Origin: Naegleria gruberi
Lineage: Eukaryota
Assembly: GCA_000004985.1 (NCBI GenBank)
Contig: GG739272.1
Direction: 5' to 3' (one strand)
DNA length: 2,310 bases
Made by a program: the position numbers and the translations under genes
Notes under the pieces: model-generated
Told to the model about the DNA's origin: nothing
What the model saw: only the letters and a program-made list of their open reading frames with translations
The model's database searches: none
Shown: positions 1 to 2,310 of the stretch, one piece after another
Layout: the number at the start of each line of letters is the position of its first letter
Numbering within the stretch: the first letter of the stretch is position 1

Positions 1-1
1 T

Positions 2-703
2 TACATTTCCAAGAGGAAACAAATTGCCATTCATACTTTTCTAAGTGAAGTATTGGAGAGGGACGATTTGTCAATCAAGTGCAATAGATGTCGTATTGAA
101 ATGGAACATTTACATGAGGTTAATGCATTCACTCTTCATCATGTCATGTATAAAGATGATGACTTTACAAAGACATTTAGGAGTACAACAAAATTCATTC
201 CCGAATTCAAAAAGTTTGGTGCTGATTGGTTCAAGAAGAATGAAAAGTTGGAAGTATTGTGTAGACCTTGTCATGGTTTGGAACATGCAAGGAATGTTGA
301 AGGTGGTTCTAATTGGCAATATTGTCATGAAAAGATGATCACCTTGATGGGAGGAAAATGTCAGGAATGTGGCCTGTCTTTTGAATCCAATTCAGAATTG
401 GGAAAGATCTTTCATGTGCATCACAAGAATAGGGATGGTGTGAAGAAGAGAGCCCAAGCAACAGAAGATATTGATGATGAAGAGAGGGAAGTAGCCCAAC
501 ATGTTAATGAGTACAAGTTAATTCTTGCAATGACTGAAGAGCAACAAGTAGAAAAGTTGAAGGAATTTGAATTGCTATGTGATGGATGCCATTATTTTGA
601 GCACATGGAAAAGCATGCAAGATCGGAAGTTATCGATTTAGGAATGAAGGAGAGAATGATGAACTTGTTGAGTTTTCAAAGAGTATTGTCTATGGAAAAA
701 TAA
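2..703 (+). CDS. Partial (5'-truncated at the window edge or by an unseen intron) CDS for a small Cys/His-rich protein with two tandem HNH / His-Me-finger nuclease-like motifs. Stop is TAA at 701-703.
   Basis: Frame 2 is open from nt 2 with no upstream stop. The track's 'M' at 53 is TTG. The first real ATG is at 101, which would delete the first CxxC. Repeat 1: C-N-R-C ... FTLHHV ... LEVLCRPCHGLEH. Repeat 2: C-Q-E-C ... IFHVHHKNRDG ... VNEY ... LLCDGCHYFEH. Both fit the CxxC / HH / N / CxxCH-x3-H architecture of HNH (pfam01844-type) domains, though the spacers are longer than usual. About 220 codons, no internal stops, codon usage consistent with the neighbouring gene. Confidence 0.6.
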   Translation, partial: YISKRKQIAIHTFLSEVLERDDLSIKCNRCRIEMEHLHEVNAFTLHHVMYKDDDFTKTFRSTTKFIPEFKKFGADWFKKNEKLEVLCRPCHGLEHARNVEGGSNWQYCHEKMITLMGGKCQECGLSFESNSELGKIFHVHHKNRDGVKKRAQATEDIDDEEREVAQHVNEYKLILAMTEEQQVEKLKEFELLCDGCHYFEHMEKHARSEVIDLGMKERMMNLLSFQRVLSMEK

Positions 704-801
704 TAAATTGTGATGATGATTTGGGACAAAGTACTGTCATACCTTGTAAAATTGTGGTAGAGTTTTCCCTCTGGTACTGCCATTTTTTTGTTGGATTTAA
801 A

Positions 802-821
802 AAAATTAAGGATCCGCAACT
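802..821 (+). repeat. Copy 3 of the core repeat, on the opposite strand relative to copies 1 and 2, in the intergenic/3'UTR region: AAAATTAAGGATCCGCAACT.
   Basis: 18 of 20 nt are identical to the AAAATTAAGGATCTGCAATT core of the intron at 1991..2046. The two T->C differences create a BamHI site and the start of an XhoI site. Confidence 0.55.
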
Positions 822-895
822 CGAGTGACTTGTTCACTACTTCAAGTATTTCCAATTACTTCATTTCCAGATATATTAGTGATATTTCCAATCAT

Positions 896-901
896 AATAA
901 A
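896..901 (+). promoter_or_regulatory. Candidate polyadenylation signal AATAAA for the plus-strand gene. An additional AATAAA sits right at the stop codon (703-708).
   Basis: Hexamer about 195 nt downstream of the stop codon, followed 45-100 nt later by a GU-rich block. Confidence 0.35.
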
Positions 902-944
902 TGATATTATTGAAGATGTCTACTCGTAGTTTGCAACATTGTTA

Positions 945-1000
945 TTATTTTGTGTTGGGTGAGGTTGTGTGCATTGAGTTGATGTTTGGTTGCATTTTTT
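945..1000 (+). promoter_or_regulatory. GU-rich downstream element candidate (TTGTTATTATTTTGTGTTGGGTGAGGTTGTGTGCATTGAGTTGATGTTTGGTTG) 3' of the AATAAA. Metazoan-style polyA site architecture.
   Basis: A strongly G+T-biased run on the plus strand, located where a cleavage-stimulating downstream element would be expected. Confidence 0.3.
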
Positions 1001-1207
1001 GTTTCAAGATTGCATCTCATTTTTAACCTGAAATTCAAGCGAAAAATCATGTACCCACTTTAGAACAGCTCATTCTCAATCATTTCTTGAATTAAAGATT
1101 GGAAAATTGAACCACATGTAGATAAACTCGTAAATGCGAGAATTTGAAAAAATAAAGTAAAAATATCAAGAAACAAAGCGAGGAATAGCAAAAGATTACC
1201 AAAAAGT

Positions 1208-1795
1208 TTATTTTTTATTCTTGAAAGGAACCTTAAATTTCTTCACAACAGCAGCAGCAACAGCAGTACCCTTAGTAATGGGTGTTTGGATTTGTTTTGG
1301 AGATTGATCAATTCTAGTGACATATCCATGAGTGAGTTCATTCCAAAATTTGCCAGATTCAGCTGGTGTTTCCTCCTTCTCTTCAAAGGCTTGCCTAATA
1401 GCATTGTAATGCTTTTTAACTCCAACGATTGACCAGTCCAACTTTACACCAATCAAAATTGGGAATTTATCTAACAAATTTCCAAGGTGGAAAAGCTTGG
1501 TCATTTTGGAAACACCTACGGAAGGGGCAAACTTGTGGAAGGCATCTTTCTTTTTCAATTGTCTGTTACTGGCAAGTTCTTTGGAAAGTTGAATGAAAAC
1601 TCGCAAGCTGATTAAATTTTTGCAATATACACTTGAATTCAATGCTTTGGAAATGTCAGTCTTTAATCTGTGGACATCACCATCAAATATTGTTCCAATT
1701 ACTTGTTCACTAGCACTAGTGATTAGATTCTGTTTCAATTTTTGTAAGGTAATCCTATTAGCTTCATCCAACTTTTGAACAGCATATTCTATTAG
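1208..1795 (-). CDS. Terminal coding exon (195 codons plus TAA stop at 1208-1210) of a multi-exon gene. Uncharacterised, likely nuclear/nucleolar protein. Sequence runs LIEYAVQKLDEANRITLQKL...KGTAVAAAVVKKFKVPFKNKK.
   Basis: Long minus-strand ORF (track 1208..1828). Its first 11 track residues (MRICNFIVPSQ, starting with TTG) are intron read-through. A 3' splice site CTCAG| lies at 1796-1797, immediately upstream, in phase with exon 2. Confidence 0.75.
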   Translation of the reverse strand, partial: LIEYAVQKLDEANRITLQKLKQNLITSASEQVIGTIFDGDVHRLKTDISKALNSSVYCKNLISLRVFIQLSKELASNRQLKKKDAFHKFAPSVGVSKMTKLFHLGNLLDKFPILIGVKLDWSIVGVKKHYNAIRQAFEEKEETPAESGKFWNELTHGYVTRIDQSPKQIQTPITKGTAVAAAVVKKFKVPFKNKK

Positions 1796-1843
1796 CTGAG
1801 AAGGAACAATAAAATTACAGATCCTCAATTTATAAATACTTAC
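1796..1843 (-). other. Spliceosomal intron (48 nt) between exon 2 and exon 3. GTAAGTATTTATAAATTGAGGATCTGTAATTTTATTGTTCCTTCTCAG.
   Basis: GTAAGT donor after AAT, and a pyrimidine-rich ...TTCCTTCTCAG acceptor. Removal joins exon 2 to the long downstream ORF in frame. Confidence 0.75.
1811..1843 (-). repeat. Copy 2 of the same repeat: GTAAGTATTTATAAATTGAGGATCTGTAATTTT.
   Basis: Direct alignment with 2014..2046 on the minus strand. Identical GTAAGTATT, AAATT, AGGATCTG and AATTTT blocks. Confidence 0.7.
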
Positions 1844-1990
1844 ATTCTTTTGCTTCTTTCCATTCTTTAAAGAGTTTCTTTTTCTCTTCTTTGATTTTGC
1901 CTTTTCCTCCTCAGAATTACTATAGGAATCATTCTCATCATGTTCATTATCGGATACATGTTCAAACTCTTCTGATAATTTATCTTGATC
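1844..1990 (-). CDS. Internal coding exon, 147 nt / 49 codons, phase 0/0: DQDKLSEEFEHVSDNEHDENDSYSNSEEEKAKSKKRKRNSLKNGKKQKN. Acidic/Ser-rich with a KKRKR basic NLS-like patch.
   Basis: Bounded by AAG|GAT at the 3' splice site (1991-1992) and AAT|GTAAGTAT at the 5' splice site (1843). Its length is a multiple of 3 and joins exon 1 and exon 3 in frame with no stops. The composition continues the acidic theme of exon 1. Confidence 0.7.
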
Positions 1991-2046
1991 CTTATTACAA
2001 TTGAAATGAATAAAAAATTGCAGATCCTTAATTTTGTAATACTTAC
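1991..2046 (-). other. Spliceosomal intron (56 nt) between exon 1 and exon 2 of the minus-strand gene. GTAAGTATTACAAAATTAAGGATCTGCAATTTTTTATTCATTTCAATTGTAATAAG.
   Basis: Canonical GTAAGT donor directly after codon GAT, and an AG acceptor. Removing it restores the frame (phase 0). Stops are present in frame inside it. Confidence 0.7.
2014..2046 (-). repeat. Copy 1 of a short dispersed repeat forming the 5' part of the intron: GTAAGTATTACAAAATTAAGGATCTGCAATTTT.
   Basis: 28 of 33 nt are identical to the 5' part of the other intron (1811..1843). Core AAAATTAAGGATCTGCAATT. Confidence 0.7.
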
Positions 2047-2154
2047 ATCATGATGGCTTTTCTCGGAAGCATCTTGTTGTTGATCATTATCATCTTCCAT
2101 TTGATCTAATATTTTCTCCTCATCATCAGAAGGTTCTGTTTCAATATCTTGTTT
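2047..2154 (-). CDS. Coding exon containing the ATG at 2100-2098 (MEDDNDQQQDASEKSHHD). The reading frame is also open upstream to a putative 3' splice site at 2155-2156 (KQDIETEPSDDEEKILDQ-MEDD...). The exon is therefore either 2047..2100 (ATG start) or 2047..2154 (internal exon).
   Basis: The real ATG at 2100 is followed by an in-frame acidic peptide ending GAT|GTAAGTAT (5' splice site at 2046). Upstream of the ATG the same frame stays open for 18 codons with the same Asp/Glu-rich composition, up to TAATAG| at 2155-2160. Confidence 0.6.
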
Positions 2155-2210
2155 CTATTATTTAAATAATATTCAATTGTATATACTTGTATTCAAATAA
2201 ATAAACAAAC
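2155..2210 (-). other. Putative 56-nt intron (GTTTGTTTATTTATTTGAATACAAGTATATACAATTGAATATTATTTAAATAATAG). Alternatively, 5'UTR if translation starts at ATG 2100.
   Basis: GT...AG boundaries, an AT-rich interior with stops in all frames, and flanking open frames in phase with similar acidic composition. Confidence 0.35.
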
Positions 2211-2310
2211 CTTAATCACTTTCGTAATTACATCATTATCTTCTTCATCATCAATTTGGATTGGATGGAGAGTACGAAATACCTTCAACTGGAATATCCA
2301 ATTGGATTCA
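2211..2310 (-). CDS. Possible further upstream coding exon (partial, runs off the window): ...ESNWIFQLKVFRTLHPIQIDDEEDNDVITKVIK, ending AAG|GTTTGT.
   Basis: There are no stops in this frame across 2211..2310. It ends with AAG followed by a GT-starting AT-rich segment (2155..2210). That segment carries stops in all frames and ends TAATAG. The acidic DDEEDND stretch matches the downstream exons. The 5' splice site GTTTGT is weaker than the GTAAGTAT used by the other two introns, so this is tentative. Confidence 0.35.

What the first reader, a model, noticed from the sequence alone, without database searches (positions are those of the whole stretch)
802..825. Third copy of the intron-core repeat in the intergenic 3'UTR region, in inverted orientation
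Plus-strand 802..821 AAAATTAAGGATCCGCAACT matches 18/20 to the AAAATTAAGGATCTGCAATT core of the intron at 1991..2046, which is encoded on the other strand. A copy outside any intron and in the opposite orientation argues that the sequence is a dispersed repeat family that can land in introns, i.e. a small non-autonomous element or introner progenitor. It argues against a splicing signal.
Basis: seen in the sequence. Interest (0 to 1): 0.55.

Follow-up and report, generated by a model that had tools for sequence, protein, structure and literature searches.

The report
Sibling introns plus a stray fragment
In this small Naegleria gruberi contig, two short introns of one gene are copies of each other and an 18-20-base piece of their shared core also lies between the genes. 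Nothing I could reach shows that this is a genome-wide mobile element.

Summary
Plus-strand 802-821 matches the core of intron 2046..1991 at 18/20. The match is unlikely to be chance: p is about 0.005 with the whole intron as query, and about 1e-4 for the core shared by both introns. The window is a complete 2310-nt Naegleria gruberi contig.

Introns 2046..1991 and 1843..1796 are true siblings. They agree at 29/35 in register from the 5' splice site, and their flanking exons are unrelated. So the intron sequence itself was copied.

The third copy is only a fragment:
- It has no consensus splice sites, terminal inverted repeats or target-site duplication.
- It lies 98 nt past the stop codon of the convergent HNH-like gene, in the sense of that gene. 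The 'inverted orientation' argument is therefore weak.
- The motif is partly palindromic, and against intron 3 the orientation is ambiguous.

It is not a splicing signal. Intron 1 lacks it, as do reconstructed N. fowleri and N. lovaniensis introns and 61 kb of related DNA.

A genome census was impossible because the N. gruberi assembly could not be reached. Indirect evidence is negative: a published introner screen scored N. gruberi zero, and the metagenome hits are unrelated.

Most likely this is low-copy, local intron duplication plus a fragment. A dispersed introner-like family remains possible but unshown. Interest is modest.

The parts
802..821 (+). Third copy of the core (AAAATTAAGGATCCGCAACT). 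It lies 98 nt after the stop codon of the plus-strand gene and contains GGATCC (810-815); CTCGAG follows at 820-825.
   Evidence: 18/20 to the intron-2 core and 15/20 to the intron-3 core. Chance p is about 0.005 with the whole intron as query and about 1e-4 with the shared core as query against real DNA.
779..819 (+). Largest extent of gapped similarity to the exon-2/intron-2 junction (2057..2018). Outside the core the identity is near chance.
   Evidence: blastn HSP of 41 columns, 73% identity, 1 gap, E=0.007. It is the best HSP between the intergenic region and the genes.
790..846 (+). A GT...AAG frame of 57 nt around the third copy. It is intron-like in length, but its 5' end is GTTGGA and its 3' half has no similarity to the introns. 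It is not an annotated intron.
   Evidence: Alignments; coordinates checked. Inference only; no transcript data.
1991..2046 (-). Intron 2 of the minus-strand gene (56 nt, phase 0): GTAAGTATTACAAAATTAAGGATCTGCAATTTTTTATTCATTTCAATTGTAATAAG. It is a sibling of intron 3.
   Evidence: Removing it restores the reading frame, and the junction is identical to the public gene model P0001/EFC35405.
2016..2035 (-). Core motif inside intron 2 (AAAATTAAGGATCTGCAATT), starting 12 nt after the 5' splice site.
1796..1843 (-). Intron 3 of the minus-strand gene (48 nt, phase 0, no in-frame stop): GTAAGTATTTATAAATTGAGGATCTGTAATTTTATTGTTCCTTCTCAG. It is a sibling of intron 2.
   Evidence: 29/35 identical to intron 2 in register from the 5' splice site, and about 83% over its whole length with two 1-nt gaps. 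The junction matches P0001.
1813..1832 (-). Core motif inside intron 3 (TAAATTGAGGATCTGTAATT), at the same offset from the 5' splice site as in intron 2.
2155..2210 (-). Intron 1 of the minus-strand gene (56 nt, GTTTGT...AATAG). It lacks the motif and serves as an internal control.
   Evidence: It preserves the reading frame. The motif search found nothing with at most 7 mismatches inside it except one chance-level 13/20 match.
1208..2310 (-). Host gene of the two sibling introns. It is a single-copy orphan gene ('predicted protein, partial', EFC35405). Exons are 2310-2211 (open at the contig end), 2154-2047, 1990-1844 and 1795-1208.
2..703 (+). Convergent neighbouring gene. It has two HNH-like modules in tandem (CxxC..HH..CxxCHxxxH, twice). 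The annotated CDS is 101-703 (EFC35404). It is one of four copies in N. gruberi at 95-99% amino-acid identity. The third motif copy lies in its 3' flank.
   Evidence: All Pfam HNH hits are below threshold.

Best explanation
This is a low-copy, locally propagated sequence rather than a demonstrated mobile family.

Shown:
- The window is a whole small contig of Naegleria gruberi.
- Introns 2046..1991 and 1843..1796 of one orphan gene are copies of each other along the whole shorter intron, including the 5' splice site.
- The exons on either side of them are unrelated.
- The 802-821 site shares only an 18-20-nt core with them.

Inferred:
- The intron sequence itself was copied to a second position in the same gene. 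One route is intron transposition: the excised intron reverse-splices into the same pre-mRNA, and the product is reverse-transcribed and recombined into the genome. The other route is a short DNA insertion during break repair that brought its own donor site.
- The 802-821 site is a short patch of the same sequence. It could be a by-product, for example a short templated insertion or a decayed reverse-spliced copy in the neighbour's 3' region. It could instead be the source from which the intron core was templated.

I see no evidence that the motif acts as a splicing signal, a structured RNA, or a transposon end.
For: - Organism and gene models.
- Sibling introns: 29/35 identical in register from the 5' splice site. 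The maximum among 6,497 GT-starting 35-mers in 61 kb of Naegleria-type DNA is 22/35, and among 19 GTAAGT starts it is 19/35. Identity is about 83% over all 48 nt of intron 3.
- Exon flanks are not similar: Smith-Waterman against codon shuffles gives p=0.3 for exon 2 against exon 3 and p=0.9 for exon 3 against exon 4. This is not a segmental exon-plus-intron duplication.
- The third copy is real but short.
- All three copies lie within 1.3 kb, and two are in one gene. That fits local propagation.
- Not a general signal: intron 1 lacks the motif. There are no hits with at most 4 mismatches in 61 kb from N. fowleri, N. lovaniensis and two environmental relatives. Reconstructed introns from those loci lack it.
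- No sign of a large family: the published screen scores N. gruberi and N. fowleri ie=0, and no annotated protein carries the translated intron.
Against: - The key test, a census of the N. gruberi genome, could not be run, so 'low-copy and local' is an inference from indirect evidence.
- The published introner screen relied on BLAST between introns. It could easily miss a 20-35-nt similarity in 50-nt introns.
- The contig is a small unplaced scaffold that carries a 4-copy gene. Such contigs are enriched in repeats, so a dispersed family would not be surprising here.
- The core is much better conserved (17/18) than its flanks in the third copy. That would also fit selection on a functional site.
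- Splicing of the two introns rests on gene prediction and frame logic. I had no transcript data.
Confidence: 0.45

Rival explanations
1. This is the first reader's view: a genome-wide dispersed short element, a MITE-like or introner-like family. It lands in genes, where sense copies are spliced out as about 50-nt introns, and also in intergenic DNA.
For: - Intron-to-intron similarity without exon similarity is the operational definition of introners (definition quoted).
- A related copy exists outside any annotated intron.
- The contig is repeat-associated: it carries a 4-copy gene on a 2.3-kb unplaced scaffold.
Against: - Only two introns are involved, and both are in one gene.
- No terminal inverted repeats or target-site duplications are shared by the copies. 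There is an 8-bp inverted repeat in intron 2 only, and GAT/GAT flanks at intron 2 only.
- The third copy is about 20 nt, not element-sized.
- N. gruberi was scored as introner-free in a 3,325-genome screen.
- No translated retained copy appears in any annotated proteome.
- None of the 79 metagenome hits has the intron context.
- RNA folds are no more stable than shuffled sequence, unlike what I recall being reported for fungal introner-like elements (from memory, not checked here).
Confidence: 0.2
2. The core is a functional cis-element kept by selection. It could be a protein-binding DNA site (a partial palindrome around GATC) or a sense-strand RNA motif shared by both convergent transcription units. 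On this view it is not a relic of copying.
For: - The core is conserved far better than its flanks in the third copy: 17/18 against about 57%.
- All three copies are in sense for their own gene.
- The motif is a partial palindrome, 16/22 self-complementary.
- The three copies cluster at one locus.
Against: - The two introns are homologous over their whole length, not only at the core. Shared descent explains the intron pair without any function.
- There is no Rfam match and no fold stability.
- The motif is absent from 61 kb of related Naegleria DNA.
- The right palindrome arm (AATTTT) is missing in the third copy.
- Whether 802-821 is transcribed at all is unknown. AATAAA overlaps the stop codon at 702-707, and the next one is at 896-901.
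Confidence: 0.15
3. The third copy is a chance match in AT-rich DNA, and only the intron pair is real.
For: - Half of the match is low-complexity A/T sequence (AAAATTAA), and the 3' flanks of homologous genes also carry T-run/A-run stretches.
- On an all-against-all basis, an 18/20 pair somewhere in a 2.3-kb AT-rich window is not very rare. My estimate is about 0.05. Other chance repeats of 12-14 nt at 100% identity exist in the window.
- With the whole intron as query, real Naegleria-type DNA gives 17/20 at 8 positions in 61 kb.
Against: - The match falls exactly on the block shared by both introns and includes its G+C-containing centre (AAGGATC-GCAA).
- With that block as query, no match of 17/20 or better occurs in 322 kb of real AT-rich DNA.
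- Only 5 of 1000 shuffles reach 18/20 even with the whole intron as query.
Confidence: 0.1

Closest known systems
Introners and introner-like elements (Micromonas, Aureococcus, Dothideomycete fungi; survey by Gozashti et al. 2022, PMC9860276)
   Same: Introns in one genome are similar in sequence while their flanking exons are not. The similarity starts at the donor site, and the introns are short.
   Different: Known families have tens to thousands of copies in unrelated genes. Many have transposon hallmarks (terminal inverted repeats, target-site duplications), and I recall stable predicted folds being reported for the fungal elements (from memory). Here there are two introns in one gene plus a 20-nt fragment. 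No such hallmarks or fold stability were found, and the species was scored negative in the published screen.
Intron transposition or duplication by reverse splicing. Fungal intron families are summarised in PMC3488318. Similar 'sibling' introns within the same gene were reported for Oikopleura dioica by Denoeud et al. 2010; I cite that from memory and did not check it here.
   Same: Whole-intron similarity between two positions of the same gene, with unrelated exon context. All copies are in sense for their host transcripts. Propagation is local.
   Different: There is no evidence here for the RNA intermediate. The third copy lacks intact intron ends and is only a fragment.
Intron gain through double-strand-break repair with filler or templated DNA (Daphnia pulex; Li et al. 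2009, as summarised in PMC3488318)
   Same: Short new sequence is inserted into exons and copied from elsewhere. Short direct repeats can lie at the junctions: here GAT|...|GAT at intron 2, and A[T/A]TAAGGATC repeated 35 nt apart. A nearby intergenic site shares the core.
   Different: The repeats flank only one of the two introns and are short enough to be chance. No presence/absence polymorphism data are available.
Miniature inverted-repeat transposable elements (MITEs)
   Same: Short, non-coding, AT-rich sequence found in introns and in intergenic DNA.
   Different: No terminal inverted repeats or target-site duplication are common to the copies. Copy number is unknown. The unit is shorter than typical MITEs.

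Membership tests
Introner / introner-like element | Two or more introns of one genome with high sequence similarity that does not extend into the flanking exons | tested here: met
   Introns 2 and 3 agree at 29/35 in register, against a background maximum of 22/35. They are about 83% identical over 48 nt. Exon flanks are not similar, p=0.3 and 0.9. Only one pair exists, and both introns are in one gene.
Introner / introner-like element | Many copies in unrelated genes across the genome | not testable with these tools
   N. gruberi DNA was unreachable. Indirect evidence is negative: the published screen gives ie=0 for N. gruberi NEG-M and N. fowleri, and no protein in 5.8 billion clusters carries the translated intron.
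Introner / introner-like element | Transposon hallmarks at the ends (terminal inverted repeats, or a target-site duplication that supplies a splice site) | tested here: not met
An 8-bp inverted repeat (TATTACAA/TTGTAATA) and GAT/GAT flanks occur in intron 2 only. Intron 3 and the 802-821 copy have neither.
Introner / introner-like element | Full-length copies outside genes (for DNA-transposon-type introners) | tested here: inconclusive
   The intergenic copy shares only an 18-20-nt core, or at most 41 columns at 73%. A 57-nt GT..AG frame exists at 790-846, but it has a poor donor (GTTGGA) and an unrelated 3' half.
MITE | Terminal inverted repeats and a target-site duplication flanking each copy | tested here: not met
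   No inverted or direct flanking repeat is common to the three copies.
MITE | High copy number in the genome | not testable with these tools
The degenerate 19-mer gave 0 hits in viral contigs. It gave 79 single hits in metagenomes, none with intron-like or Naegleria-like flanks; some lie in bacterial gyrB.
General splicing signal (extended branch-point or intronic enhancer consensus of Naegleria) | Present in most introns of the species or genus at a fixed position | tested here: not met
   Intron 1 of the same gene lacks it. The uniquely reconstructed N. fowleri and N. lovaniensis introns lack it. There are 0 hits with at most 4 mismatches in 61 kb. The sample is small and includes no other N. 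gruberi introns.
Structured RNA (mirtron-like hairpin, snoRNA or another Rfam family) | A fold more stable than shuffled sequence, or a covariance-model match | tested here: not met
   Fold z-scores range from -0.15 to -0.73 for the introns and for the 780-870 region on both strands. No Rfam match overlaps any copy, even at E up to 10.

The most novel reading that the evidence does not exclude
Naegleria gruberi carries a family of ultra-short (about 50 nt) intron-generating sequences. They spread by reverse splicing into sense transcripts, including the same pre-mRNA and the 3' region of a convergent neighbour. The 802-821 site would then be a decayed copy in an untranslated region. This would be the first introner-like system in Discoba/Heterolobosea and the shortest known, and BLAST-based screens would have missed it because of its length.
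Probability: 0.1. Interest if true: 0.65.

Novelty: new member of a known kind. Interest (0 to 1): 0.3.

Why it matters
Clear cases of recently copied spliceosomal introns are rare outside a few algae, fungi and tunicates. Naegleria belongs to a deep-branching lineage that is often used to infer ancestral intron biology. A pair of introns that copied themselves inside one gene gives a concrete, testable example of intron gain in that lineage. If a genome census showed more copies, it would reveal a class of very short introners that current screens miss. If the census is empty, this is a small local duplication of limited consequence.

Tried and rejected
1. Fetching N. gruberi DNA. Exact-protein look-ups for P0001-P0004 all failed, so no census and no comparison with the three paralogous HNH-like loci was possible.
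2. Degenerate core AAATTRAGGATCYGYAAYT. It gave 0 hits in viral contigs. It gave 79 single hits in metagenomes, close to the roughly 60 I estimated from pattern degeneracy under an assumed collection size. None has GTAAGTATT upstream, and several are bacterial gyrB. This was uninformative for Naegleria.
3. Peptide search with translated introns and translated copy-C frames, to catch retained-intron gene models. Two candidates appeared and none reached E of 10 or better.
4. Literature. No paper links Naegleria with introners beyond a negative table entry. Motif text searches returned only Myc-tag primers.
5. Rfam, tRNA and tandem-repeat scans found nothing at the motif.
6. RNA hairpin or mirtron idea: rejected, since folds are no better than shuffles.
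7. Segmental duplication of exon plus intron. The 203-nt spacing equals intron 2 plus exon 3, which made this worth testing. It was rejected because the exons are not similar.
8. Transposon model with 802-821 and 2016-2035 as terminal inverted repeats of a 1.2-kb element. I found no target-site duplication, and the right 'end' lies inside an intron that is needed to keep the gene's frame. The enclosed gene is single-copy. I consider this unlikely.
9. TTAA-target transposon end (TTAA|GG...). The similarity runs upstream of TTAA rather than into the putative element for the third copy. Not supported.
10. Resemblance of the reverse complement (GATCCTTAAT) to the U12-type branch site, and of the core to U6 snRNA. 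Both are short coincidences on the wrong strand or without any model match.
11. Vector contamination, suspected because GGATCC and CTCGAG lie 4 nt apart. There is no plasmid match, and the flanks are ordinary Naegleria sequence.
12. Third copy inside an unannotated coding intron of the plus-strand gene. Rejected, because all four paralogues and the distant homologues end at the same C-terminus.

Full report
**What the window is.** The 2310-nt window is a complete small contig of Naegleria gruberi. The minus-strand gene product is 100% identical to 'predicted protein, partial [Naegleria gruberi]' (P0001 = EFC35405), whose longest contig is 2310 nt. G+C is 26-41%. Two convergent genes fill the contig.

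- *Plus strand.* An ORF at 2-703 is open at the contig end. The annotated CDS is 101-703 (P0005 = EFC35404). It encodes two tandem HNH-like modules (CxxC..HH..CxxCHxxxH). All Pfam, PHROG and PDB hits to HNH nucleases are below threshold.
- *Copy number of the plus-strand gene.* It exists in four copies at 95-99% amino-acid identity in the N. gruberi assembly. They lie on scaffolds of 613 kb and 401 kb, a 3.9-kb contig and this contig. Distant homologues occur in N. fowleri, N. lovaniensis and environmental contigs.
- *Minus strand.* An orphan gene runs 2310..1208 with three GT..AG introns that keep the frame: 2210..2155 (56 nt), 2046..1991 (56 nt) and 1843..1796 (48 nt). The public model P0001 uses exactly my junctions for the second and third.
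- *Limit.* Splicing is therefore predicted, not verified by transcripts.

**The observation.** Plus-strand 802-821 (AAAATTAAGGATCCGCAACT) matches the intron-2 core (AAAATTAAGGATCTGCAATT, 2035..2016) at 18/20. It matches the intron-3 core (TAAATTGAGGATCTGTAATT, 1832..1813) at 15/20. I tested chance in three ways.

- With any 20-mer of the entire intron 2 as query against 1..1790, both strands, 5 of 1000 dinucleotide shuffles reach 18/20.
- With real DNA as null (61 kb of N. fowleri, N. lovaniensis and two environmental relatives), the whole intron reaches 17/20 at 8 positions and never 18/20. Those matches probably fall on the T-rich tail of the intron; I did not inspect them.
- With the 26-nt block shared by both introns as query, 322 kb of AT-rich real DNA gives 56 loci at 15/20, 4 at 16/20 and none higher. 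This puts 18/20 within 1.8 kb at roughly 1e-4.

The match is real. It is also short. The best gapped extension is 779-819 against 2057-2018 (41 columns, 73%, E=0.007), and outside the 18-nt core identity is about 57%.

- The copy lies 98 nt downstream of the plus-strand gene's stop codon and reads in that gene's sense. All three copies are therefore in sense for their own transcription unit.
- The motif is also a partial palindrome (AAAATT-nnn-GATC-nnn-AATTTT, 16/22 self-complementary).
- Against intron 3, the same-strand alignment (16/20) beats the inverted one (15/20). Only intron 2 decides the orientation (18/20 against 14/20).
- Whether 802-821 is transcribed is unknown. AATAAA overlaps the stop codon (702-707), and the next one is at 896-901.

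**The two introns are siblings.** This is the more solid and more interesting result.

- In register from the 5' splice site they agree at 29/35. The maximum among 6,497 GT-starting 35-mers in 61 kb of Naegleria-type DNA is 22/35, and among 19 GTAAGT starts it is 19/35.
- With two 1-nt gaps the similarity runs through all 48 nt of intron 3, at about 83%.
- The exons on either side are not similar. Smith-Waterman against codon shuffles gives p=0.3 for exon 2 against exon 3 and p=0.9 for exon 3 against the start of exon 4.
- The 203-nt spacing equals intron 2 plus exon 3, but this is not a tandem exon-plus-intron duplication. The intron sequence itself was copied to a second site in the gene.

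This is the operational signature used to call introners (definition quoted). It is also what intron transposition by reverse splicing, or insertion of the same short DNA at two sites, would produce (mechanisms reviewed in PMC3488318).

**What it is not.**

- *Not a general splicing signal.* Intron 1 of the same gene lacks it. The introns I could reconstruct uniquely from N. fowleri and N. lovaniensis gene ranges lack it. The 20-mer has no hit with at most 4 mismatches in 61 kb of related DNA.
- *Not a structured RNA.* Fold z-scores run from -0.15 to -0.73, and no Rfam family overlaps any copy at E up to 10.
- *Not a recognisable transposon.* No terminal inverted repeat or target-site duplication is common to the copies. 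Intron 2 alone has an 8-bp inverted repeat near its ends, GAT/GAT flanks, and a 10-nt direct repeat A[T/A]TAAGGATC that reaches its 3' junction.
- *Not vector contamination.* This is so despite GGATCC and CTCGAG lying 4 nt apart in the third copy.

**The census I could not run.**

Exact-protein look-ups failed for all four N. gruberi proteins tried, although N. fowleri and N. lovaniensis loci could be fetched.
- The degenerate core gave 0 hits in viral contigs. It gave 79 single hits in metagenomes, close to the roughly 60 I estimated from pattern degeneracy under an assumed collection size. None has the intron context, and several lie in bacterial gyrB.
- A search for proteins carrying the translated intron, which would reveal retained-intron gene models, found nothing.
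- The 3,325-genome introner survey lists N. gruberi NEG-M and N. fowleri with ie=0 (Supplementary Table 4 of PMC9860276). That pipeline could miss a 20-35-nt similarity in 50-nt introns.
- One caution for any future census. The plus-strand gene has four near-identical copies, so the 802-821 version may recur simply as part of that duplicated unit or of allelic contigs. Such hits must not be counted as dispersal.

**Best reading (confidence about 0.45).** This is a low-copy, locally propagated sequence: two sibling introns created by copying an intron, or a short intron-forming insert, within one gene. The 18-20-nt patch of the same sequence in the adjacent intergenic or 3' region is either a by-product or the source. 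Candidate mechanisms for a by-product are a templated repair insertion or a decayed reverse-spliced copy. The clustering of all three copies within 1.3 kb, the fragmentary nature of the third copy and the negative indirect evidence favour this reading.

**Rivals.**

- A functional cis-element kept by selection (0.15). The sharp contrast between core and flank conservation and the all-sense arrangement favour it. Whole-length homology of the introns and absence of the motif from related DNA count against it.
- Chance for the third copy (0.1).

**Verdict.** I class it as a new, small example of a known kind of event (duplicated or transposed introns) in a lineage where none has been reported. 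Interest is modest unless a genome census turns up a family.

Noticed in passing
window 2-703 (+); P0002-P0005; L080-L083: The plus-strand gene encodes two tandem HNH-like modules (CxxC..HH..CxxCHxxxH). It is present in four copies at 95-99% amino-acid identity in N. gruberi. Homologues at 26-41% identity occur in N. fowleri, N. lovaniensis and environmental contigs. No curated family matches above threshold; the best hits are Pfam HNH at E=0.04 and McrA in the PDB at E=0.31. It looks like a lineage-specific, possibly mobile nuclease family.
   Followed up: partly
window 1208-2310 (-): The host gene of the sibling introns is a single-copy orphan. I found no homologue among the 5.8 billion protein clusters in the word-index search. 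It has acidic low-complexity N-terminal exons, a KSKKRKR nuclear-localisation-like stretch and a 195-aa C-terminal domain, with only a sub-threshold DUF7625 hit.
   Followed up: partly
window 1796-1843 (-): Intron 3 is 48 nt, phase 0 and has no in-frame stop. If retained it would insert 16 residues (VSIYKLRICNFIVPSQ) without breaking the frame. Its status as an intron rests on GT..AG ends, its similarity to intron 2 and the gene model.
   Followed up: no
window 810-825 (+): A BamHI site (GGATCC) and an XhoI site (CTCGAG) lie 4 nt apart inside and next to the third motif copy. A search of the plasmid collection found no match, so vector contamination is unlikely.
   Followed up: yes
window 1987-2032 (-): Within intron 2 the 10-mer A[T/A]TAAGGATC occurs twice, 35 nt apart. 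The second copy spans the 3' splice junction (AAG|GATC). This could be a repair or duplication scar, or chance. Intron 3 has nothing similar.
   Followed up: partly
window 821-861 (+) and 1693-1712 (+): Two exact 12-mers just downstream of the third copy (ACTTGTTCACTA and TTCCAATTACTT) both match one 20-nt stretch of the last exon of the minus-strand gene, in permuted order. Each alone is at chance level. Their co-location is unexplained.
   Followed up: no
window 702-707 (+) and 1207-1219 (-): In both convergent genes an AATAAA hexamer overlaps or abuts the stop codon. About 500 nt of intergenic DNA lies between the two stop codons, with no detectable RNA gene.
   Followed up: no
L082 10515-10599 (-): In N. 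fowleri, a tRNA-Leu(taa) gene lies about 20 nt downstream of the stop codon of the HNH-like homologue.
   Followed up: yes
L022, L043, L046, L048, L051, L054 (metagenome loci): Several metagenome hits of the degenerate 19-mer fall in the conserved ..ITDPQFEGQTKTK.. motif of bacterial gyrB on the opposite strand. This shows that the pattern's metagenome hits are unrelated coding sequence.
   Followed up: partly
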